DNA from: Eledone cirrhosa
Taxonomy: Eukaryota
Assembly (NCBI GenBank): GCA_964016885.1
Contig: OZ024743.1
Span: forward strand, 225,060,001 to 225,124,000
DNA length: 64,000 nucleotides
Direction of reading: 5' to 3'
Shown: in pieces, positions 1,567-48,275 of the stretch
Layout of the letters: every line of letters starts with the position of its first letter
Numbering within the stretch: position 1 is the stretch's first letter
Translations under genes and position numbers: made by a program
The notes under the pieces: model-generated
Seen by the model: only the letters and a program-made list of their open reading frames with translations
Databases searched by the model: none
Told to the model about the DNA's origin: nothing

Positions 1567-1611
<45 letters not shown>

Positions 1612-1653
1612 ATGATATTAAATAAATGGAAACTATATTTATAAAACCATATT

Positions 1654-1715
1654 TATTCTATTATATATATTTTAAGGGTACCAAAAACTTTGGTACGCTT
1701 TCATCAGATAAAATA
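1654..1715 (-). ncRNA. Mirror hammerhead copy with GAAA changed to AAAA (predicted inactive)
   Basis: Reverse complement of 1839-1900 with the core substitution at 1673. Confidence 0.75.
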
Positions 1716-1838
1716 CAAAGTGTGTTTTATAAATTTTGACATAGCCAAGGAACATACCTTATCAGTTGAATTTTCCTTGGATAGTCAACTGATAAGGTAT
1801 GTTCCTTGGCTATGTCAAAATTTATAAAACACACTTTG

Positions 1839-1900
1839 TATTTTATCTGATGAAAGCATACCAAAATTTTTGGTACCCTTGAAATATATATAATAGAATA
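1839..1900 (+). ncRNA. Minimal type-I hammerhead ribozyme
   Basis: tattttat-CTGATGA-aag..taccaaaatttttggta..ctt-GAAA-tatata-TA-atagaata; 8-bp stem I, palindromic stem III, AATAAA at 1897. Confidence 0.85.
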
Positions 1901-2245
1901 AATATGGTTTTATAAATATAGTTTCCATTTATTTAATATCATTGAATATTTACTCCAGAAATCTGTCGAGTGCCCTGAATCAGTTATAAACATTTATATT
2001 TGTTGAATTTCCAACAAATTAAATATCCCTTCTGCTTATATATATATATATGATAAGCTTTTGCAGTTTCCATCTACCAAATTTCAGTCACAAGGCATTG
2101 GTCAACCCGACGGTATAGTAGATAATATTTGCCCAAGGTACTATGCTGTATAACTGAACTCAAAGCCAAATGGCTACAAAGTAAAGTTCTTGACCACTCA
2201 GTCATGACTTATACTTATAATAACTTAAGTTTGTCATTAAAAACA

Positions 2246-2506: not shown

Positions 2507-4450
2507 AGGCGTTCGATAGGGTCGACCATGGTTACCTGGATGCGGTGCTAGCGGCGGCAGGCTTCGGACCCGTTTTCAGGGGCTGGATCACTGCTATGCA
2601 CAGCAGCCGCATCTGCTCTAGGGTCAAGGTGAACGGCTACCTCTCGGAGCCGTTCAAAATCGCGCGGTCCATCCGACAAGGGTGCCCTCTCTCCTCCCTT
2701 CTGTATGTGTTGACTCTCGAGCCACTACTGCGGAAGTTGGAGTTGTTGCAGGGCATCCCTTTGGAACCGGGATTGCGGAAAGCGGTGTCAGCCTACGCCG
2801 ATGATGTGACAGTAATGGTGTCGACGGCCTCCGAAATCGAGGCGGTCGGCACCTTACTGGAGGAGTACGAAAAGTTCACAGGGGCTAAGCTGAACCGGGA
2901 CAAGTCGATCGGTTTGCAACTCGGCACGTGGAGGGGCAGACCGATGCCCTCCGATGGCGTCGTCGGACGCTGGACGGAGGGCCCGGTGAAGTTGCTCGGG
3001 GTCTGGTTCGGACCGGACCTCCAGGTGGAGAAAAACTGGGCGGAGGTTACGAACAGGGTGTTTGCACTGACCCAGAAGTGGGCCAGTTGCAAACTATCCC
3101 TGAAAGGTCGGGCGGAGGTGGCGAACACTTATATAGCATCCGTCATCTACTACCGCCTGACCGTAGTGCCCTGCCCAAGGGAAACCCTCACCAAGATGGA
3201 GCGCGCGCTCTTCCAATTCCTTTGGAAGGGGCGGGCTCCTATGGTGAGGAGATCCATCTGCTGTCAACACCCTTCGAAAGGAGGGCTGGGGATGCCGTGG
3301 CTAATGATGCGTAAACACGCATTAAGGCTACGGCACCTCTACGTATTCCTCACCGGACAACCGGTGTGGGCCTCGTTTGTGAGACGAACCTTTCCCAGAC
3401 TCGTCTCACTCACCGAGCTGCAATCCTGGGTCAAGCAAAGACCGAGAAAACTGGGCGCCTGGCACACTGAGTGTGCCCAGGCGCTCACCGCCCTCTGGCA
3501 GGCGGATCCGGTTATCAGTGGAGACTCCACCGCAACATTCTATAGAGGGCTGGTACGCAGCAGGTGCGACGACGCCCTCGGAGAAGCCCTAGACATGGAG
3601 GAGGACGAACTGGCCAGCCTGTTCGGTAGGACATTCAGCCCGGGACCTATGGACAACTTCCAGAAGTCCCTGGCCTGGCAGTGCTACCGAGGGGCTTTAC
3701 CCGTTCGAGAAAGGCTCTACAGACACGGGCGCCCGGGTAGGGACCCCGCCAAAAAGATCTGTCCCAGATGCGTGTGCGACGAGGAAACCGTTGCACACGC
3801 ATTGGTACACTGCTCGGGCGTAGCCGATCTGTGGGGCTATGTCGAACAACTGCTGTCAAGGGTGGGACCGATCCGGTTGACCACCGAGTCTATTGTAATG
3901 ATCAAGCCGCCTCCCCCCTTCAAAGATGAAGCAGAGGCGGTGTTTCTGTGCGTAATAGCCATGGCGAAAGAGGTTGTATGGTGGACGCGTCTGAAAGGAC
4001 TGAGGTCAGGCACCTTTCTCTCTGGCCAACAACTGGTCCGTTTCTTCCGATATCATTTCGGAAGAAGGATCAGGATGGAGAGAGAGGTGCTGCACCCCAG
4101 TCGTTTTTATGAAAGGTGGGTGAAAGTGGCGAGAATGGCCCGTGTGAATGGGCCTTCTCTTTACATAAGCCTGTAGGTGGAAAAGAGGAAGGAACGAGGG
4201 AGCACCCCCTCTCTGTGCTCCTGAGGAAAAGGGTTGCACACTTTTTTCGGGGGTGTGTGCGACCCCCCAAGGCGCCTCCTCTCTATTGAGGATTTTGTTA
4301 AAAATTTTATTTTTTGTTATATCTTATTTTATTTTTATATTTTGTTATTGCCTCCTCCTTATTGAGGACGCCTTTTTGTGTAAACTCCCCCCTTTGTACT
4401 TGTCCCACTTTTGATGCCCTAGTGGCAAATAAAAGAAACTTATCTATCTA
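2507..4450 (+). mobile_element. L1/Tx1-type non-LTR retrotransposon, 5'-truncated
   Basis: Starts at AFDRVDHGYL; IRQGCPLS, AYADD, GGLGMP, C-terminal CPRC..ETVAHALVHC knuckle; 3'UTR ends AATAAAAGAAAC + tatcta; GC-rich versus flanks. Confidence 0.92.
2509..4176 (+). CDS. ORF2 C-terminal part (reverse transcriptase + zinc knuckle), uninterrupted
   Basis: 543-aa ORF in track, extends upstream to the truncation point; no endonuclease domain. Confidence 0.85.
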   Translation, partial: AFDRVDHGYLDAVLAAAGFGPVFRGWITAMHSSRICSRVKVNGYLSEPFKIARSIRQGCPLSSLLYVLTLEPLLRKLELLQGIPLEPGLRKAVSAYADDVTVMVSTASEIEAVGTLLEEYEKFTGAKLNRDKSIGLQLGTWRGRPMPSDGVVGRWTEGPVKLLGVWFGPDLQVEKNWAEVTNRVFALTQKWASCKLSLKGRAEVANTYIASVIYYRLTVVPCPRETLTKMERALFQFLWKGRAPMVRRSICCQHPSKGGLGMPWLMMRKHALRLRHLYVFLTGQPVWASFVRRTFPRLVSLTELQSWVKQRPRKLGAWHTECAQALTALWQADPVISGDSTATFYRGLVRSRCDDALGEALDMEEDELASLFGRTFSPGPMDNFQKSLAWQCYRGALPVRERLYRHGRPGRDPAKKICPRCVCDEETVAHALVHCSGVADLWGYVEQLLSRVGPIRLTTESIVMIKPPPPFKDEAEAVFLCVIAMAKEVVWWTRLKGLRSGTFLSGQQLVRFFRYHFGRRIRMEREVLHPSRFYERWVKVARMARVNGPSLYISL

Positions 4451-5241: not shown

Positions 5242-5279
5242 CGAGCTGAGGATCCGCAAAGGTGAAACAATTGTTCTCG
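5242..5279 (+). ncRNA. Minimal type-I hammerhead ribozyme in a 127-bp insert (5185-5311) flanked by (TA)n
   Basis: cgag-CTGAGGA-tcc gcaaa ggt-GAAA-caattg-TT-ctcg; palindromic stem III; stem I extendable (ccat/atgg). Confidence 0.78.
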
Positions 5280-5308
5280 GTATGGTGAACTAACTGTTGT
5301 GTAACCAC

Positions 5309-8615: not shown

Positions 8616-8670
<55 letters not shown>

Positions 8671-8672
<2 letters not shown>

Positions 8673-8859
8673 AGATAAGCAGAACAAGTAAAAATTCAAT
8701 CAATTTTTCAAAATAAATCAAAATTAATATACAATCAAAATTAATCAAAATTAAAAAATATAATATAAATATTTACCTATTCTAATGGCCCTAACTGTAC
8801 AGTTTCACGGTGCAAAACATTAAATATCACCAGGATATTAATGGAAAAGCAACGATCAT

Positions 8860-8862
<3 letters not shown>
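8671..8862 (-). ncRNA. 5'-truncated hammerhead insert between (TA)n tracts
   Basis: Minus strand TTGATGA-tcg..long stem II..cgt-GAAA-ctgtacag-TT-agggcc; 5' strand of stem I lost. Confidence 0.65.
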
Positions 8863-8897
<35 letters not shown>

Positions 8898-8899
<2 letters not shown>

Positions 8900-9195
8900 A
8901 ACTATAGTTATCTTGCCTGATGGTTTGAACTTTACAACACAACCTGCCTCTTTGAGGTCAAATACCAACCCTACTACCATCTACAAACTGACCAATGAGA
9001 ATCAAGACTATTCCTGCTGACAACAGTAAATTATTCCTAACAAGCTTATATGTCCCAAGGCTCTGATACCATCAACACTATAAACACAGAGCTGGCATAT
9101 CTAAGAACTGACTAACTGCCTGATGAGGTCATAGCCATTCAATGGCTATCATCGAAATATATATAGCAGTAAATAAAGCATTTATGTTTCGTCAC
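8898..9195 (+). mobile_element. Penelope-like element 3' end (GIY-YIG C-terminus + hammerhead)
   Basis: Encodes ..TIVILPDGLNFTT..* (PxGLN ends PLE GIY-YIG domains), then hammerhead and AATAAA; flanked by (TA)n. Confidence 0.7.
9115..9170 (+). ncRNA. Minimal type-I hammerhead ribozyme
   Basis: actgc-CTGATGA-ggtc atagccat tca atggctat catc-GAAA-tatata-TA-gcagt; AATAAA at 9172. Confidence 0.9.
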
Positions 9196-9204
9196 TATAT
9201 ATAT

Positions 9205-9904
9205 ATCATCATCATCATCGTTTAAGGTCCATGTTCCACGCTTGCATGGGTTTGGACGGGAGTTTTCCCACTTGAGGCAAGAGTGGTTGTCATTGCTCGC
9301 ATAGGACTGTCTGGCGGGTTTTCTACAGCTGGATGCCCTTCCTAACACCAACCACATTTACAGTGTGGGCTGGGAGGTTTTTACCGTGTTGCCTACACGG
9401 CCACATTACAGCGTGGACTGTGTGTTTCTTTTGTCGTGACACCTTCTCTATTACTGAGTACCGCCAAAGGTCTCGGTCCAGTAACATTGTCTTGGAGAGG
9501 TGTAAGTGTGTGAGGTCGGAATTTATCAGCTCGTCCCAGGTTTTTCTGGGTCTGCCTACTCCGTGGCTACCGTCTATCTTTATTGCCCTGCACTTTGTTA
9601 TACAGCTGTCGTCTTTCATGCGCATCACGTGACCATACCAACGTAGCCTTCTCTCGAGTAAACAACATCTGATCCCTCTTATTTCTAATTTTTTCCTTAG
9701 TTCGTTTATGCTTTGCCGTTCACGTATATTACTATTACACATCCAGCGGAGCATGCAAGCTACATTCCTCTCTAGTCTGCATATATCCTCTGCACACAAT
9801 GCCCAGGTCTCACTGCCATGCAACATTGCTGTTCGTATGCAGGCATCATACAACCTGCCTTTCATTTTTAGGGAGAACCCTTTAGCGGCTAATAGTGGTA
9901 TAAG

Positions 9905-9909
<5 letters not shown>
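9205..9909 (-). mobile_element. RTE family A 3' fragment with 3'UTR deletion
   Basis: KGRLYDACIRTAMLHGSETW..RLRWYGHVMR..GRPRKTW; (GAT)n tail. Confidence 0.93.
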
Positions 9910-9936
<27 letters not shown>

Positions 9937-9938
<2 letters not shown>

Positions 9939-12593
9939 CATCATCATCATCACCATCATCGTTTAACGTCCATATTCCACGCTTGCATGGGTTTGGACGG
10001 GGGTTTTCCCACTTGAGGCAACAGTGGTTGTCTTGCTCGCATAGGACTGTCTGCCGTGTTTTCTACAGCTGGATGCCCTTCCTAACACCAACCACATTTA
10101 CAGTGTGGGGCTGGGAGGTTTTTACCGTGTTGCCTACACGGCCACATTACAGCGTGGACTGTGTGTTTTTTTGTCGTGACACCTACACGATCTCATTTGT
10201 TTCGGCCTGGATGTTGTGGCACCAACATAACTTTACATTGAAAGGGGCGGTGTGGATGGGGTGGGGGTGGTGGGACAGGGGTGTATTTTGTTAGAGATGC
10301 CTACTGACTGTAGTAGGTTTCATTTTGTACTTAGGTAAGGCGGGTCTTCTCTATTACTGTGTAGCGCCAAAGCTCTCGGTCCAGTGACATTGCCTTGGAG
10401 AGGTGTAAGTGTGTGAGTTCGGAATTTATCAAGTCGTCCCAGGTTTTTCTGGGTCTGCCTACTCCGTGGCTACCGTCTATTTTTATTGCCCTGCACTTTT
10501 TTATACAGCTGTCGTCTTTCATGCGCATCACGTGACCATACCAACGTAGCCTTCTCTCGAGTAAACAACATCTGATCCCTCTTATTTCTAATTTCTCCCT
10601 TAGTTCGTTTATGCTTTGCCGTTCACGTATGTTACTATTACACATCCAGCGGAGCATGCAAGCTTCGTTTCTCTCCAGTCTGCTTATATCCTCTGCACAC
10701 AATGCCCAGGTCTCACTGCCATGTAACATTGCTGTTCGTATGCAGGCATCATACAGCCTGCCCTTCATTTTTAGAGAGAACCCTTAAGTGGCCAATAGTG
10801 GTATAAGCTCTCTGAACTTTTTCCATCCCGTTCTGACCCTAGCTACTGTACTTTCAGAGCACCCTCCCCCACTGCTGATTTTATCACCCAGGTAACGGAA
10901 GCTGTCCACTATTTCTATAGAACCCTCTGCGCAATTGAAAGAGCTAGTATTATGTGGGCACTTGCTGCTACTTATTGCACCAGAGCACGGGCCACATATA
11001 AAATCTATATTCTTAGATAGTTTACCTGTGATCGCACTACATCTTTTATGTACCCATACTTTGCATTTGGGACATAAAATGGAGTTTCTACCTACTCCTT
11101 TCCTACACACTGAGCATGGCCATTTCCCAGATGGGACCGGTGCCCTATTTTCCTTCCTACAAACTAGAACTTTAGTCTTAGACAAGTTAACTTTAAGGCC
11201 TTTTGATTCTAGGCCATGCTTCCATGTTTGGAATTTCTTCTCTAGTGCAGCCATTGATTCAGCTATGAGCGTTAGATCATCTGCATATAGGAGTTCCCAT
11301 GGCCAGCCGGTCTTGAACTCCTCTGTTATAGCGTGAAGGACAATAATAAATAGTAGGGCGCTAAGGACGGAGCCCTGATGAACACCAACTTTTACGCTAA
11401 ACTCTTCACTATATTCGTTGTTAATTCTAACCTTGCTGGCTGTTTCTTTATACATGGCTTGTATAGCTCTCACAAGCCATTCATCAACACCTAGTTTTCT
11501 CAGATAATCGAGCGGGGTACTCTGTCAAAGGCTTTCTCCAAGTCAACAAAAGCTAAGTATAAGGGTTTACTTTTAGCTAGGTACTTCTCCTGTAGTTGTC
11601 GTACAATGAAAAGAGCGTCTGTTGTACTTTTACCTGACACAAACCCGAACTGCATTTCGTCTAGATCAATTCGCTCTCTGATTAGTTGCACTATTACTTT
11701 TTCTGTGACCTTCATGACCTGGTCAATTAATTTAATGCCTCTATAGTTTCCCCTATCTAGGGCATCACCTTTACCCTTGTAGCAGTTAATGATGATGCTG
11801 CTACTCCAGTCCTTCGGAACGGCCCCATTCTGTATGACTTGGTTTACTATCCGGGTGACCATAGTGTGTCCCAACGTTCCAGATGCTTTCAGCATTTCGG
11901 CAACTATTTCCGAAAGCCCAGCCGCCTTGCCCGTCTTCATGTCTTTGATCGCCTTACTTATTATACTACCTTCAACTTGCACTGCTGGTCCCTCTATTGG
12001 GTTGATGTGGGGGAGACTGTCTTTCTCCCAATTATTCTCCTCATTTAGTAGCCTTTCGTAGTGACACTTCCAAGCTACCTTCTTATCAGCGTCAGTGATG
12101 GCAAGTACACCATCATCATTAAGGACACACTTCTCCCCGACAATATTACGGTTTTCCTTGACACATTGCCTAGCAATCCTGAACACCTCACGTTTTTAGT
12201 CCTCGCGTTGTAGAACATGCTTGAACTTTCTTTCCTCTGCTTCCCTTCTTGCGAAGTACACTTGTCTCCTAGCTTCCCTCCTGGCCACTTGATAGTCTTC
12301 TCTACTTCCCCCATCCCGCCATGCTTTCCAAGCCTGCTTTTTGGCCTTGATTGACCTCTCCACCTTACTGTTCCACCACCAAGTTACTCTCCTCCTGCCT
12401 ATAGGCCTGCTTCAGCCACAGGTTTCATCTGTCGCCTTCAGCAGGTTAGCTTCCAGGAATTCCCACTGTTCCTCTATATTGTATGACTCTAATTGCTCTT
12501 CCTTACTATCAAAAGCATCAAGTAATATGCTTTTAAATTTTTGACTGGCTGTGGCGTCCTTTAATTTCCATATTTTTCTCCTGAGGATAGTCC
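9937..12593 (-). mobile_element. RTE family A, ~2.65 kb, 5'-truncated and frameshifted
   Basis: ORFs 11500-12186, 10784-11473, 10331-10768 give RT motifs, PHD finger and C-terminus; (GAT)n tail. Confidence 0.95.
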
Positions 12594-23565: not shown

Positions 23566-24634
23566 ATCATCATCATCATCATCATCATCATCGTTTAATG
23601 TCCATGTTCCACGCTTGCATGGGTTTGGACGGGAGTTTTCCCACTTGAGGCAAGAGTGGTTGTCTTGCTTGCATAGGACTGTCTGGCGGGTTTTCTACAG
23701 CTGGATGCCCTTCCTAACACCAACCACATTTACAGTGTGGGGCTGGGAGGTTTTTACCGTGTTGCCTACATGGCCACATTACAGCATGGACTGTGTTTTT
23801 TTTGTTGTGACACCTACACGATCTCATTTGTTTCGGCCTGGATGTTGTGGCACCAACATAACTTTACATTGAAAGGGGCGGTGTGGATGGGGTGGGGTGG
23901 GGGTGGGGTGGGGGGGGGGGGGGGTATTTTGTTAGAGATGCCTACTGACTGTAGTAGGTTTTACTTTGTAAGGCGGGTCTTCTCTATTACTGAGTACCGC
24001 CAAAGATCTCGGTCCAGTGACACTGTCTTGGAGAAGTGTAAGTGTGTGAGGTTGGAATTTATCAGATCGTCCCAGGTTTTTCTGGGTCTGCCTACTCCGT
24101 GGCTCCCGTCTATCTTTATTGCCCTGCACTTTTTTATACAGCTGTCATCTTTCATGCGCATCACGTGACCATACCAACGTAGCCTTCTCTCGAGTAAACA
24201 ACATCTGATCCCTCTTATTTCTAATTTTTCCCTTAGTTCGTTTATGCTTTGCCGTTCACGTATATTACTATTACACATCCAGCGGAGCATGCAAGCTTCG
24301 TTCCTCTCTAGTCTGCGTATATCCTTTGCACACAATGCCCAGGTCTCACTGCCATGCAAAATTGCTGTTCGTATGCAGGCATCATACAACCTGCCTTTCA
24401 TTTTTAGGGAGAACCCTTTAGCGGCTAATAGTGGTATAAGCTCTCTGAACTTTTTCCATCCAGTTCTGACTCTAGCTACTGTACTTACAGAGCACCCTCC
24501 CCCACTGCTGATTTTGTCACCCAGGTAACGGAAGCTGTCCACTATTTCTATAGAACCCTCTGAGCAATTGAAAGAGCTATTATTTTGTTGGCACTTGCTG
24601 CTACTTATTGCACCAGAGCACCGGCCACATGTAA
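23566..24634 (-). mobile_element. RTE family A 3' fragment
   Basis: ORF 23961-24698 homologous from TCGRC onward; (GAT)n tail. Confidence 0.95.
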
Positions 24635-29442: not shown

Positions 29443-29904
29443 ATACAACAATTGTGGTTGTATGTGTATTTATGTATGAAGGTGTCGGTGTTTATACCTG
29501 TGCCATAGCTGTGTTTATGTACACATTAGCATATTTGTGTGCGCGTGTTTTTATGTGAAAAAGACATTGCACCTGCGTGTATTTCTACTGATGCACCTAT
29601 GTTGTATAGTTCTTCAGTTACTGGCTAATCTATACTAACAGGACACAGACACAAATGTGTTAATAGTTAATTAACATTTAAATAAAACATCAAGGCTAGG
29701 GTTTATACTATACTAATAAAATGTACTGTAGAGTGCAGCTATAACACGCCACAATAGCATAACATGCAACACATCATAACTCACTGTAGTACACCACATA
29801 CCACAAACCACAACTTATCACATCACACTATAACACACTACATACAACACACCACACCACACATACAACACAGCACAGCAATAACCCTCCATACACCACA
29901 TCAG

Positions 29905-32690
29905 ACAGTAACCACATCAGACAGTAACAACACACCACAACCACAACACACCAGACAGTAACAACACACTGCACTGCTACAACACAACCACAACACACAG
30001 ACAGCACCAACACACTGCACTGCTACAACACACCACAACACAACCACAACACACCAGACAGCAACAACACACTGCACTGCTACAACACAACACAACACAA
30101 CACAACCACAACACACCAGACAGCACCAACACACTGCACTGCTACAACACACCACAACACAACCACAACACACTGCACTGCTACAACACAACACACCAGA
30201 CAGCACCAACACACTGCACTGCTACAACACACCACAACACAACCACAACACACCAGACAGCAACAACACACTGCACTGCTACAACACAACACAACCACAA
30301 CACACCAGACAGCACCAACACACTGCACTGCTACAACACAACACAACACAACCACAACACACCAAACAGCAACAACACACTGCACTGCTACAACACAACA
30401 CAATACAACCACAACACATCAGACAGCAACAACACACTGCACTGCTACAACACACCACAACACAACCACAACACACCACACAGTAACAACACACTGCACT
30501 GCTACAACACACCACAACACAACCACAACACACTGCACTGCTACAACACACCACAACACAACCACAACACACCAGACACCAACAACACACTGCACTGCTA
30601 CAACACACCACAACACAACCACAACACACCACACAGTAACAACACACTGCACTGCTACAACACACCACAACACACTGCACTGCTACACCACACCACAACA
30701 CAACACAACCACAACACACCAGACAGCAACAACACACTGCACTGCTACAACACACCACAACACAACCACAACACACCAGACAGTAACAACACACCACAAC
30801 ACAACCACAACACACCACACAGCAACAACACACTGCACTGCTACAACACACCACAACACACCAGACAGCAACAACACACTGCACTGCTACAACACACCAC
30901 AACACAACCACAACACACCAGACAGTAACAACACACTGCACTGCTACAACACACCACAACACAACCACAACACACCAGACAGTAACAACACACTGCACTG
31001 CTACAACACACCACAAAACAACCACAACACACCAGACAGCAACAACACACTGCACTGCTACAACACAACCACAACACACCAGACAACAACAACACACTGC
31101 ACTGCTACAACACACCACAACACAACCACAACACACTGCACTGCTACAACACACCACAACACAACCACAACATACCAGACAGCAACAACACACTGCACTG
31201 CTACAACACAACACAACACAACCACAACACACCAGACAGCACCAACACACTGCACTGCTACAACACAACACAACACAACCACAACACACCAAACAGCAAC
31301 AACACACTGCACTGCTACAACACAACACAACACAACCACAACACACCAGACAGCAACAACACACTGCACTGCTACAACACACCACAACACAACCACAACA
31401 CACCAGACAGTAACAACACACTGCACTGCTACAACACACCACAACACAACCACAACACACCATAACCACGATACTCCACACAGCAACAACACACCACACT
31501 GCAACAACACACTGCACTGCTACAACACAACCACAACACACCAGACAGTAACAACACACTGCACTGCTACAACACACCAGAACACACCATAACCACGATA
31601 CACCACACTGCAACAACACACCACACTGCAACAACACACCACAACACAACCACAACACACTGCACTGCTACAACACACCATAACACAACCACAACACACT
31701 GCACTGCTACAACACACCACAACACAACCACAACACACCAGACAGCAACAACACACTGCACTGCTACAACACACCACAACACAACCACAACATACCAGAC
31801 AGCAACAACACACTGCACTGCTACAACACACCACAACACACCACACAGTAACAACACACTGCACTGCTACAACACACCACAACACACCAGACAGCAACAA
31901 CACACTGCACTGCTACACCACACCACAACACAACCACAACACACCAGATAGCAACAACACACTGCACTGCTACAACACACCACAACACAACCACAACACA
32001 CCAGACAGTAACAACACACTGCTACAACACACCACAACACACTGCACTGCTACAACACACCACAACACACCAGACAGCAACAACACACTGCACTGCTACA
32101 CCACACCACAACACAACCACAACACACCAGACAGCAACAACACACTGCACTGCTACACCACACCACAACACAACCACAACACACCAGATAGCAACAACAC
32201 ACTGCACTGCTACAACACACCACAACACAACCACAACACACCAGACAGTAACGACACACTGCTACAACACACCACAACACAACCACAACACACCAGACAG
32301 CAACAACACACTGCACTGCTACAACACACCACAATACAACCACAACACACCAGACAGTAACAACACACTGCACTGCTACAACACACCACAACACAACCAC
32401 AACACACCAGACAGCAACAACACACCACACTGCAACAACACAACACATAACACAGCTACATCACAGCACACTGCAACAACACACCACAACACAACCACAA
32501 CACAGCAGACAGCAACAACACACCACACTACAACAACACAACACAGCTACAACATACCGCACAACTCACAACAACAATACACTACACACCACACACAACT
32601 ACACAACTACAACACATTACACAACTACAACACACTGCACAACTACAGCACACTACACAACTACAGCACACTACACAACTACAACACACC
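29905..32690. repeat. Complex CA-rich satellite, modular ~57-bp unit
   Basis: Modules acaacacactgcactgct / acaacacacc / acaacacaacc / agacagca in shuffled order; degenerate at both ends. Confidence 0.95.
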
Positions 32691-45649: not shown

Positions 45650-46029
45650 GCTAAGAGTGTTCTATATTCTGTATAATCTTTATCAGTATGCAAATAGAAG
45701 AACTATGAGAATGTAACCAAAGCAATAACGTACAAACTCCCCAGATATTTCTTGCTTATTAGATAGAATATTAGTATAAGATAAAATGAACGGAGATTGA
45801 AGAAGCTATAGCTTTATTTAATGATGTATGTTGCTGATATGATAAATTAGAGATCAGGTGTGAATTACAGTGGAAAAGAAAGGTAAATCTTGTTACTATT
45901 AATAACATTTCACACATAACATCTCTCTATAAGAAACAATATGATTATGATTGTAACTACAAATGAGAGAAGGAGCATGAAGGGTAGTGGAGGGAGGGGT
46001 GAGAGTGGTAGTGGGAATGTGAGAAGAAA

Positions 46030-46345
46030 CAGGAGTAAGAGTAGGAGTGGGAGAGTGAGAGGTAGTAGGAGTGGGAGAGTGAGAGGTAGTAGAAGTGGGA
46101 GAGTGAGAGGTAGTAGGAGTGTGAATGAGATCAGGAGTGGGAGAGTGAGAGGTAGTAGGAGTGTGAATGAAATCAGGAGTGAGAGAGTGAGAGGTAGTAG
46201 GAGTGAGAGAGTGAAAGGTAGTAGGAGTGGGAGAGTGAGAGGTAGTAGGAGTGGGAGAGTGAGAGGTAGTAGGAGTGGGAGAGTGAGAGGTAGTAGGAGT
46301 GGGAGAGTGAGATGTAGTAGGAGTGTGAATGAGAGCAGGAGTGGC
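46030..46345. repeat. 24-bp purine-rich minisatellite ggtagtaggagtgggagagtgaga
   Basis: About a dozen units with variants. Confidence 0.92.
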
Positions 46346-46502
46346 CAAGTGAAAGGAGGCTGGAGTAGAGTGAAAGAAAGTGGGCTTGAGAGATTCTATT
46401 TGAGAGGAGGAATGTTTAGCCAGTACATAGGTACAAAAGAAAAAATTACTAACTATAAGTAACTACAGTAAAGTAAGTCTGCTACTAAGAGAAAAACTGA
46501 AT

Positions 46503-48275
46503 TTAAAACTCCAGCAAAGGTGACATGGTCATTAAAACTCCAGCAAAGGTGACAGGGTCATTAAAACTCCAACAAAGGTGACAGGGTCATTAAAACTCCA
46601 GCAAAGGTGACAGGGTCATTAAAACTCCAGCAAAGGTGACAGGGTCATTAAAACTCCAACAAAGGTGACAGGTCATTAAAACTCCAGCAAAGGTGACAGG
46701 GTCATTAAAACTCCAGCAAAGGTGACAGGGTCATTAAAACTCCAGCAAAGGTGACAGGGTCATTAAAACTCCAGCAAAGGTGACAGGGTCATTAAAACTC
46801 CAGCAAAGGTGACAGGGTCATTAAAACTCCAGCAAAGGTGACAGGGTCATTAAAACTCCAACAAAGGTGACAGGTCATTAAAACTCCAGCAAAGGTGACA
46901 GGGTCATTAAAACTCCAGCAAAGGTGACAGGGTCATTAAAACTCCAGCAAAGGTGACATGGTCATTAAAACTCCAGCAAAGGTGACAGGGTCATTAAAAC
47001 TCCAGCAAAGGTGACATGGTCATTAAAACTCCAGCAAAGGTGACATGGTCATTAAAACTCCAGCAAAGGTGACATGGTCATTAAAACTCCAGCAAAGGTG
47101 ACATGGTCATTAAAACTCCAGCAAAGGTGACAGGGTCATTAAAACTCCAGCAAAGGTGACAGGGTCATTAAAACTCCAGCAAAGGTGACAGGGTCATTAA
47201 AACTCCAGCAAAGGTGACAGGGTCATTAAAACTCCAGCAAAGGTGACATGGTCATTAAAACTCCAGCAAAGGTGACAGGGTCATTAAAACTCCAGCAAAG
47301 GTGACAGGGTCATTAAAACTCCAGCAAAGGTGACAGGGTCATTAAAACTCCAGCAAAGGTGACAGGGTCATTAAAACTCCAGCAAAGGTGACAGGGTCAT
47401 TAAAACTCCAACAAAGGTGACAGGTCATTAAAACTCCAGCAAAGGTGACAGGGTCATTAAAACTCCAGCAAAGGTGACAGGGTCATTAAAACTCCAGCAA
47501 AGGTGACAGGGTCATTAAAACTCCAGCAAAGGTGACATGGGCATTAAAACTCCAGCAAAGGTGACATGGTCATTAAAACTCCAGCAAAGGTGACAGGGTC
47601 ATTAAAACTCCAGCAAAGGTGACAGGGTCATTAAAACTCCAGCAAAGGTGACAGGGTCATTAAAACTCCAGCAAAGGTGACATGGTCATTAAAACTCCAG
47701 CAAAGGTGACATGGGCATTAAAACTCCAGCAAAGGTGACATGGTCATTAAAACTCCAGCAAAGGTGACAGGGTCATTAAAACTCCAGCAAAGGTGACATG
47801 GTCATTAAAACTCCAGCAAAGGTGACATGGTCATTAAAACTCCAGCAAAGGTGACAGGGTCATTAAAACTCCAACAAAGGTGACAGGTCATTAAAACTCC
47901 AGCAAAGGTGACAGGGTCATTAAAACTCCAGCAAAGGTGACATGGTCATTAAAACTCCAGCAAAGGTGACATGGTCATTAAAACTCCAGCAAAGGTGACA
48001 TGGTCATTAAAACTCCAGCAAAGGTGACATGGTCATTAAAACTCCAGCAAAGGTGACAGGGTCATTAAAACTCCAGCAAAGGTGACAGGGTCATTAAAAC
48101 TCCAGCAAAGGTGACATGGTCATTAAAACTCCAGCAAGGGTGACAGGGTCATTAAAACTCCAACAAAGGTGACAGGGTCATTAAAACTCCAACAAAGGTG
48201 ACAGGTCATTAAAACTCCAGCAAAGGTGACAGGGTCATTAAAACTCCAACAAAGGTGACAGGGTCATTAAAACTC
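46503..48275. repeat. 29-bp minisatellite attaaaactccagcaaaggtgacagggtc, ~61 copies
   Basis: Head-to-tail units with few variants, no spacers. Confidence 0.97.

What the first reader, a model, noticed from the sequence alone, without database searches (positions are those of the whole stretch)
8898..9195. Penelope anchor: PDGLN coding end followed by a textbook hammerhead and AATAAA
This is the only insert retaining coding sequence. ..ILPDGLN.. matches the PxGLN end of PLE GIY-YIG endonucleases. About 90 nt after the stop is the cleanest hammerhead in the window (5-bp stem I, long stem II, predicted cleavage after 9165). It links the non-coding inserts to an autonomous PLE.
Basis: partly seen in the sequence, partly recalled or inferred. 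Interest (0 to 1): 0.72.

Follow-up and report, generated by a model that had tools for sequence, protein, structure and literature searches.

The report
Truncated Hydra-clade Penelope hammerhead end
This is the cut-short tail end of an abundant 4-kb Penelope-like jumping gene: it carries a hammerhead RNA motif of a known kind that is predicted to self-cut, while the supposed protein ending lies about 1 kb past the gene's real stop codon and is likely a chance match.

Summary
The link to an autonomous Penelope-like element (PLE) also holds. 8898-9195 is the 5'-truncated 3' end of a young family (1603 candidate places, best copies 96-98% alike) inserted in (TA)n. Full copies are about 4 kb: pLTR, then an RT + GIY-YIG ORF, then a 1.28-kb 3' UTR. 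They carry the Hydra-clade motifs (RW, DKT, CxCx5C, CxxC/CxH, no CCHH). The 'PDGLN coding end' is not supported. The endonuclease ends ...FLKLYG* 985 nt upstream, Hydra endonucleases do not end in PxGLN, and that frame has stops and changes neutrally. The hammerhead has a palindromic AU stem III, so it likely needs a dimer or protein help. Copies end at two fixed sites 90 nt apart, each just before a small bulged hairpin. The two ends of one copy share private variants on both sides of the cut site, as a circular or multimeric RNA template would give (inferred). Verdict: new family of a known clade. The scan already noted Hydra elements, these hairpins and the single-template idea on other DNA of this genome.

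The parts
8862..8897 (.). (TA)n target microsatellite, left flank; its last 4 nt (8894-8897) also match the element (microhomology at the 5' truncation point)
   Evidence: element 3727-4015 aligns to 8894-9182
8898..9195 (+). 5'-truncated 3' end (3' UTR / pLTR) of a ~4-kb Hydra-clade Penelope-like element
8916..8930 (+). codons reading PDGLN; non-coding UTR, 985 nt downstream of the ORF stop in full copies
9115..9170 (+). type I hammerhead motif: stem I 9115-9119/9166-9170, core 9120-9126, stem II 9127-9153, GAAA 9154-9157, palindromic stem III 9157-9164, predicted cleavage after 9165
9172..9177 (+). AATAAA; no poly(A) behind it in 0 of 31 copies, role unproven
9166..9195 (+). segment from the predicted cut to end site 1 (..TTTCGTCAC); 30 nt here against 50 nt in most copies; its end can pair with the CGAAAUAUA strand of the hammerhead
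9196..9206 (.). (TA)n right flank, followed by an unrelated repeat

Best explanation
8898-9195 is the 5'-truncated, non-coding 3' end of a 4-kb Hydra-clade Penelope-like retrotransposon, likely written into a (TA)n repeat by target-primed reverse transcription that started inside the element's RNA and stopped after about 300 nt. Shown: family, structure, clade motifs, (TA)n flanks, two fixed end sites and the precise pLTR-ORF junction. Inferred: (1) the GIY-YIG domain nicks (TA)n; (2) the RT starts at site 1, where the RNA reads UAUUAUA and can pair with the target, 7 nt before a bulged ACUC..GAGU hairpin, with site 2, 90 nt on, serving the other end of some insertions; (3) the hammerhead cuts weakly, as a dimer of the two pLTR copies or with protein help, and the cut unit may be ligated to a circle, so that more-than-unit copying gives the variable 5' pLTRs and early stops give fragments like this one. 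PDGLN plays no part.
For: Family: 40 scored of 1603 candidates, 96-98% identical apart from the window itself. Full copy L031: pLTR 1589-2061, ATG 2207, stop 4826, end 6109. Motifs found in the 40 loci scanned: RMRW[RK] 31, ADK[TS] 32, YRDD 23, CxCx5C 23, HxYIG 23, CNLC 24, FLKLYG* 23, matching the Hydra definition (PMC8557442 section 11). EN: Pfam GIY-YIG E=0.003; Y27, Y40, G42, R51, H55, E110, N123 invariant in 46 sequences; model pLDDT 88.6 with T4 EndoII, Hpy188I and I-TevI as best, weak, fold matches. End sites: of 95 distinct junction-bearing stretches, 45 stop at site 1, 3 at +90, 1 at +94, 6 earlier, and 40 run on into the ORF. 28 of 30 ORF starts carry a pLTR joined in exact register, 26 to at least 1499 nt long, and 24 of the 28 run through a whole hammerhead. 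In 22 copies with both ends, 24 of 77 doubleton variants fall in the two ends of one copy (about 2 expected), against 29 same-end and 24 opposite-end in other copies. 19 variants are private to one copy among 83 ends, 3 of them 3' of the cut site, interspersed with one-end differences. Against coding at PDGLN: 14 synonymous and 42 non-synonymous changes (neutral share 0.28), in-frame TAA 51 and 57 nt upstream, TAA at +105 in 7 of 32 copies; 0.8 PxGLN expected per shuffled window; the family with the closest hammerhead (83% alike) lacks it.
Against: No cleavage, RNA or circle was observed. PxGLN arises in only 44 of 20000 shuffles of the 218 nt before the hammerhead, and within the 33 nt of GTIVILPDGLN 4 of 6 changes are synonymous (the commonest is a CpG change), so a relic cannot be wholly excluded. 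In Anolis PAc, hammerhead mutants did not affect insertion in vitro (PMC11167929), so cutting may be dispensable. Only 1 of 28 pLTRs starts exactly at the cut site and 3 more within 23 nt after it, and that site is itself (TA)4. Tandem copies exist (L133, L142 of 40), so linear multimers could give the same end-sharing. Leader-hairpin covariation is not significant on its own (60 of 500 shuffles as high, 6 sequences) and its fold z-scores are weak (-0.7 to -1.7). Copies were sampled by similarity, not at random. No intact ORF in 40 loci (longest open stretch 730 aa).
Confidence: 0.85

Rival explanations
1. PDGLN is the coding end of the autonomous element's own GIY-YIG endonuclease.
For: The motif is present and lies 95 nt of UTR-like sequence before a hammerhead. 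A PxGLN-ending PLE family exists in this genome (29002 candidates).
Against: The ORF stops 985 nt earlier with a complete Hydra-type endonuclease. Stops lie 51 and 57 nt upstream in the PDGLN frame. The local PxGLN-type endonuclease aligns to the UTR with E=1.4 at PDGLN and nothing better than E=0.42 anywhere.
Confidence: 0.02
2. PDGLN is a decayed relic: a Hydra element took over the 3' end (endonuclease tip plus hammerhead) of a PxGLN-type PLE that had inserted in a (TA)n run behind it, which would also explain the unusually long UTR with a microsatellite-like middle.
For: Exact PxGLN in 44 of 20000 shuffles of the local stretch; 4 of 6 changes in the 11 codons are synonymous; the UTR is 1.28 kb with about 400 nt of degenerate TA/TG repeat, whereas published Hydra families are 1.1-3.0 kb in all.
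Against: No GIY-YIG residues upstream in any frame. Whole-frame changes are neutral. The hammerhead, tail and leader hairpin match other (TA)n-inserted families of this genome, and the 83%-alike sister hammerhead has no PxGLN upstream. The PxGLN family I sampled has a different, C-rich UTR (8 of 25 loci printed).
Confidence: 0.07
3. Same element, but copied from linear RNA only: the hammerhead is a passenger or cuts late, short copies come from priming at the 5' pLTR-ORF junction, full copies come from tandem read-through transcripts, and the two ends are alike through tandem ancestry or gene conversion.
For: PAc data: hammerhead mutants insert normally and uncut RNA is the main substrate. 2 of 40 loci are head-to-tail tandems. 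The tail can pair with the catalytic GAAA strand (-8.2 kcal/mol; 10 and 4 of 2000 shuffles as good), which would hinder cutting.
Against: Shared private variants are interspersed with one-end differences, unlike conversion tracts. No excess of same-end inheritance (29 vs 24). The core is intact in 30 of 32 copies and hammerheads recur with different but paired stems in many families, which argues for function in the source elements.
Confidence: 0.45

Closest known systems
Hydra clade of C-terminal EN+ Penelope-like elements, incl. Hydra-1_Obim of Octopus bimaculoides (Craig et al. 2021, PMC8557442; passages, section 11 and supplement part 2 read)
   Same: Single RT + C-terminal GIY-YIG ORF, RW and DKT motifs, CxCx5C linker, CxxC and CxH around the conserved E and N, no CCHH, type I hammerhead with palindromic stem III near the 3' end, (TA)n insertion.
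   Different: About 4.0 kb against under 3 kb (Hydra-1_Obim 2507 bp, with a different hammerhead sequence); 1.28-kb 3' UTR with a microsatellite-like middle; two low-complexity inserts (about 110 and 45 aa) in the ORF relative to ~710-aa homologues; clear pLTRs.
Poseidon_Ac (PAc) of Anolis carolinensis (Frangieh et al. 2024, PMC11167929; parts 1-2 of 4 read)
   Same: Two fixed end sites downstream of the hammerhead that bound an optional tail; AT-rich target; template spanning the pLTR-ORF junction.
   Different: Poseidon clade; its two sites lie inside the ORF, and the paper equates their spacing with the 30-40-nt tail. Here they lie before the ORF, 90 nt apart, and the RNA at site 1 (UAUUAUA) can pair with the (TA)n target, whereas PAc starts at a site not homologous to the cut DNA.
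Minimal/palindromic-stem-III hammerheads of metazoan PLEs (Cervera and de la Pena 2014, PMC4209133; passages read)
   Same: Type I, palindromic helix III, predicted dimeric activity, proposed cut-and-circularise route to more-than-unit cDNA.
   Different: Stem III is pure AU and identical to the target repeat; stem II is 11 bp; the paper proposes the circle without the end-sharing test made here.

Membership tests
Hydra-clade PLE | Single ORF with RT and C-terminal GIY-YIG endonuclease | tested here: met
   all 40 loci scanned are broken, longest open stretch 730 aa
Hydra-clade PLE | RWK-type N-terminal motif and DKG changed to DKT | tested here: met
   RMRWRA and HADKT; 31 and 32 of 40 loci. 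The third residue is R here, K in most homologues
Hydra-clade PLE | CxCX5C linker | tested here: met
   CNCRDPSLC; 23 of 40 loci
Hydra-clade PLE | No CCHH in the endonuclease; CxxC and CxH flanking the conserved E and N | tested here: met
   VVYRCKVTTPNSEHHYIG has no CxxC; CNLCLSE..LLNRR..CRH
Hydra-clade PLE | Canonical hammerhead near the 3' end | tested here: met
   sequence and pairing only, activity untested
Hydra-clade PLE | Insertion into (TA)n | tested here: met
   25 matches of the end site followed by TATA in 30 loci
Hydra-clade PLE | Short length (<3 kb, 'generally') | tested here: not met
   Unit mostly 3.6-4.5 kb; described as typical, not diagnostic, in the paper
Hydra-clade PLE | No insertion-in-fingers domain; placement in the Hydra branch of an RT tree | not tested
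   No named reference sequences were held; the 152 homologues found (31-50% identity among the 120 listed) carry no names
Penelope/Poseidon- or Neptune-type PLE (PxGLN end; motif recalled and seen in a local family) | Endonuclease ORF ends in T..PxGLN | tested here: not met
   ORF ends CRHLRTGTFLKLYG*; PDGLN is 985 nt downstream
Penelope/Poseidon- or Neptune-type PLE | CCHH zinc finger within the endonuclease | tested here: not met
   Absent in the alignment
Non-LTR retrozyme (bioRxiv 10.64898/2026.07.22.740005, part 1 of 5 read) | Non-coding tandem units, each with a hammerhead | tested here: not met
   Single copy here; it is the truncated end of a coding element with variable 5' ends
Active hammerhead ribozyme | Self-cleavage at the predicted site | not testable with these tools
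   Closing stem III in a monomer costs 2.7 kcal/mol; the palindrome duplex gives -3.2

The most novel reading that the evidence does not exclude
This family's copies record in DNA that Hydra-type Penelope elements are reverse-transcribed from a hammerhead-cut, re-ligated circular RNA. Both ends of a copy carry the same private variants on both sides of the cut site, copying starts at AU-rich sites set by twin bulged hairpins, and the tail doubles as a switch that masks the catalytic GAAA. That would turn a 2014 proposal into a testable mechanism.
Probability: 0.4. Interest if true: 0.6.

Novelty: new member of a known kind. Interest (0 to 1): 0.3.

Why it matters
As found, it is an ordinary truncated copy, and it corrects the annotation: the hammerhead inserts of this window point to Hydra-clade, not PxGLN-type, elements. 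The family has value as a test bed. How PLEs regenerate their pLTRs and what their hammerheads do is still open (PMC8557442 calls the function unclear; PMC11167929 found it dispensable in vitro). This family offers many young full-length copies with mapped start sites and an end-sharing signal.

Tried and rejected
Rfam scan of the window: no hammerhead family at E<=1. Pfam on the long ORF pieces: nothing relevant; only the trimmed endonuclease hit GIY-YIG, below the curated cut-off. PDB sequence search with the RT profile: 0 hits at E<=1. Sequencing runs: no RNA holder listed; 4 of the 6 runs were laid, all contigs, and depth rose steeply towards the 3' end in X1, which the tool says is no copy number, so I do not use it. 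RNA-editing scars in the shared variants: rejected, A>G 3 of 19 against 20 of 181, p=0.46. PDGLN as a decayed duplicate of the hammerhead core (the core reads LPDEV in one frame): no such self-match in the UTR self-comparison. Full-length copies starting at the cut site as a rule: rejected, 1 exact of 28. Tail-core pairing as a clade-wide feature: significant in this family only, not in the 1847 family (517 of 2000). AATAAA as a used poly(A) signal: 0 of 31 copies carry a poly(A). Hydra coding sequence elsewhere in the window or beside the 20 loci of the 1602-2038 family: none in the window, one hit at the far edge of 1 of 20 loci. Literature searches showed no description of this 4-kb family; an Octopus vulgaris repeat paper (PMC13282606, passages) does not mention Hydra or ribozymes. 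Repbase and Dfam could not be searched, and of the Craig supplement I saw only search hits and part 2 of 59, so the family may already be catalogued.

Full report
OBSERVATION. The stretch lies between two (TA)n runs. One + frame reads ..YGTIVILPDGLNFTT..DYSC* with the stop at 9018-9020; the 'IYIYIY' before it is the microsatellite. A descriptor scan parses a type I hammerhead: stem I ACTGC/GCAGT, CTGATGA at 9120, stem II of 11 pairs with one mismatch, GAAA, stem III ATATATAT, cut after 9165. It finds 2 such motifs in the window (1847 and 9120) against a mean of 0.03 in 200 locally shuffled windows. AATAAA follows at 9172. Rfam reported no hammerhead. Predicted folds keep stem I and stem II but not the active core, and with the tail included the CGAAAUAUA strand pairs with the tail instead.

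FAMILY. A search of the window's genome (3.0 Gb; an octopus-like host is my inference from repeat content and earlier scan notes, not a tool result) gave 1603 candidates, of which 40 were scored, at 96-98% identity apart from the window itself. Copies share a fixed 3' end, TTTCGTCAC followed by (TA)n, and have variable 5' ends. The window copy is 20 nt short in the tail. The 56-nt hammerhead is identical in 21 of 32 copies and its core is intact in 30. Two hits 4048 nt apart proved to be the two ends of one element, L031: pLTR 1589-2061, ATG 2207, RT, endonuclease, stop 4826, 3' UTR to 6109. Units measured in 33 of 40 loci were mostly 3.6-4.5 kb, with 4 internally deleted ones.

CLADE. The protein has RMRW, HADKT, QLDI, MGSSDSAQ, GLYRDD, NFLD, then CNCRDPSLC, VVY..HYIG, R..H, CNLCLSE, LLNRR, CRH. 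These are the Hydra-clade features listed by Craig et al. 2021 (section 11). A search with the RT gave 152 unnamed relatives; many of the 120 listed are about 700 aa on contigs of about 2.5 kb. The 19 homologues aligned end in LN.R.E..C.H-type tails (one is truncated) and none in PxGLN. The endonuclease has invariant Y, Y, G, R, H, E, N, a weak Pfam GIY-YIG hit (E=0.003) and a confident model whose best, weak, fold matches are GIY-YIG nucleases. The paper's supplement lists Hydra-1_Obim, 2507 bp, with a different hammerhead, so this is another, longer family. I could not build a tree with named references.

PDGLN. It starts 985 nt after the stop. In 32 copies its frame has majority TAA codons 51 and 57 nt upstream and a TAA at +105 in 7 copies, with 14 synonymous and 42 non-synonymous changes against a neutral share of 0.28. 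A shuffled window holds 0.8 PxGLN on average and the real one holds 1. A true PxGLN endonuclease from this genome aligns to the UTR no better than E=0.42, and at PDGLN with E=1.4. The family with the nearest hammerhead (83%) has no such motif upstream. Against plain chance: the exact motif appears in 44 of 20000 shuffles of the 218 nt before the hammerhead (a looser motif in 1275), and 4 of 6 changes inside the 11 codons are synonymous. I leave about 7% for a captured relic.

HOW COPIES ARE MADE. Of 30 loci holding the ORF leader, 28 have a pLTR joined in exact register (GTCAC|TATTATAAC), 26 to at least 1499 nt long; 24 run through a whole hammerhead, 1 starts exactly at the cut site and 3 within 23 nt after it. 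Among 95 distinct junction-bearing stretches, 45 stop at site 1, 3 at +90 (CTTGCTTA), 1 at +94, 6 earlier, and 40 run on into the ORF. Ends at +90 can only come from RNA that spans the pLTR-leader junction, which fits the internal initiation at two sites shown for PAc. A bulged hairpin ACUC..GAGU lies 7 nt past site 1 and is kept in 6 sequences from 5 otherwise dissimilar hammerhead families (97.6% of cells paired, 2 pairs changed on both sides, but 60 of 500 shuffles as high). A similar GCUC..GAGC hairpin lies 6 nt past site 2 (lead from e1-9533619). The folds are weak alone (z -0.7 to -1.7).

In the 20 copies with at least 200 nt of 5' pLTR, a copy's own ends differ by 4.0% against 5.7% from other copies' 3' ends. 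In 22 copies, 24 of 77 doubleton variants sit in the two ends of one copy (about 2 expected), while same-end and opposite-end sharing between copies are alike, 29 and 24. With 83 ends as background, 19 variants are private to one copy and present in both its ends, 3 of them downstream of the cut site, scattered among one-end differences. So both ends trace to one template sequence. A hammerhead-cut circle, as proposed by Cervera and de la Pena, predicts this; so do tandem transcripts, and 2 tandems were seen. I put the two at about even odds. Editing scars were absent. Stem III cannot close cheaply in a monomer (+2.7 kcal/mol) but can pair between two copies (-3.2), the known pattern for PLE hammerheads with low activity in vitro.

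LINK TO OTHER INSERTS. The element has one match in the window. The insert at 1602-2038 belongs to another family (1958 candidates, often as inverted pairs). It has the same stem III, the leader hairpin, one arm ending at its site 1 and the other at CTGCTTA about 94 nt on. No Hydra ORF was found attached in 20 loci. The link is by architecture, not by PDGLN.

VERDICT. Real hammerhead, real autonomous partner, wrong coding claim. New family of the known Hydra clade; interest 0.3. The mechanistic leads (hairpins, single template) were reached here from my own calls, but the scan's unreviewed notes report them for other Hydra families of this genome, so they are not new to the scan and not independent support.

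Noticed in passing
window 1602-2038: Two-armed (inverted) hammerhead insert of another high-copy family; arms end at two different sites about 94 nt apart, and it shares the AU stem III and the leader hairpin with the family studied.
   Followed up: partly
window 5246-5300 (+): A further type I hammerhead parse (4-bp stem I, palindromic stem III AACAATTGTT) ending at a (TA)n run; a close copy flanks L027.
   Followed up: no
window 8670-8860 (-): AT-rich insert in the neighbouring (TA)n run with a hammerhead-like CTGGTGA..GAAACTGTACAGTT; the core has G in place of A6, probably decayed.
   Followed up: no
window 9323-12195 (-), repeats at 23968, 50699, 57339: Fragments of a non-LTR RT element (YADD motif), RTE-like by recall, in several 5'-truncated copies next to the insert.
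   Followed up: no
L032 6747-7900; L038 4824-5333: Two other Hydra-type endonuclease ORFs (about 40% identical) lie within 3 kb of copies of this family, so several Hydra families coexist and may cluster.
   Followed up: partly
L015 (3' end), L005 (3' end), L039 3847-3912: Chimeric ends where this family's tail or leader joins directly to another hammerhead family or unrelated sequence, suggesting template switches or nested insertions.
   Followed up: no
L024 2200-2526 and L041-L065: A very abundant PxGLN-ending PLE family (29002 candidates) with a C-rich 3' UTR; my descriptor listed no recurring hammerhead in its 25 loci.
   Followed up: partly
L031 5000-5400: About 400 nt of degenerate TA/TG repeat is carried inside the element's 3' UTR and copied with it; the ORF also has two low-complexity inserts absent from homologues.
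   Followed up: no
window 29864-31000 and 45938-47550: Long tandem arrays with strong strand skew (18/21/39-nt and 24/29-nt units).
   Followed up: no
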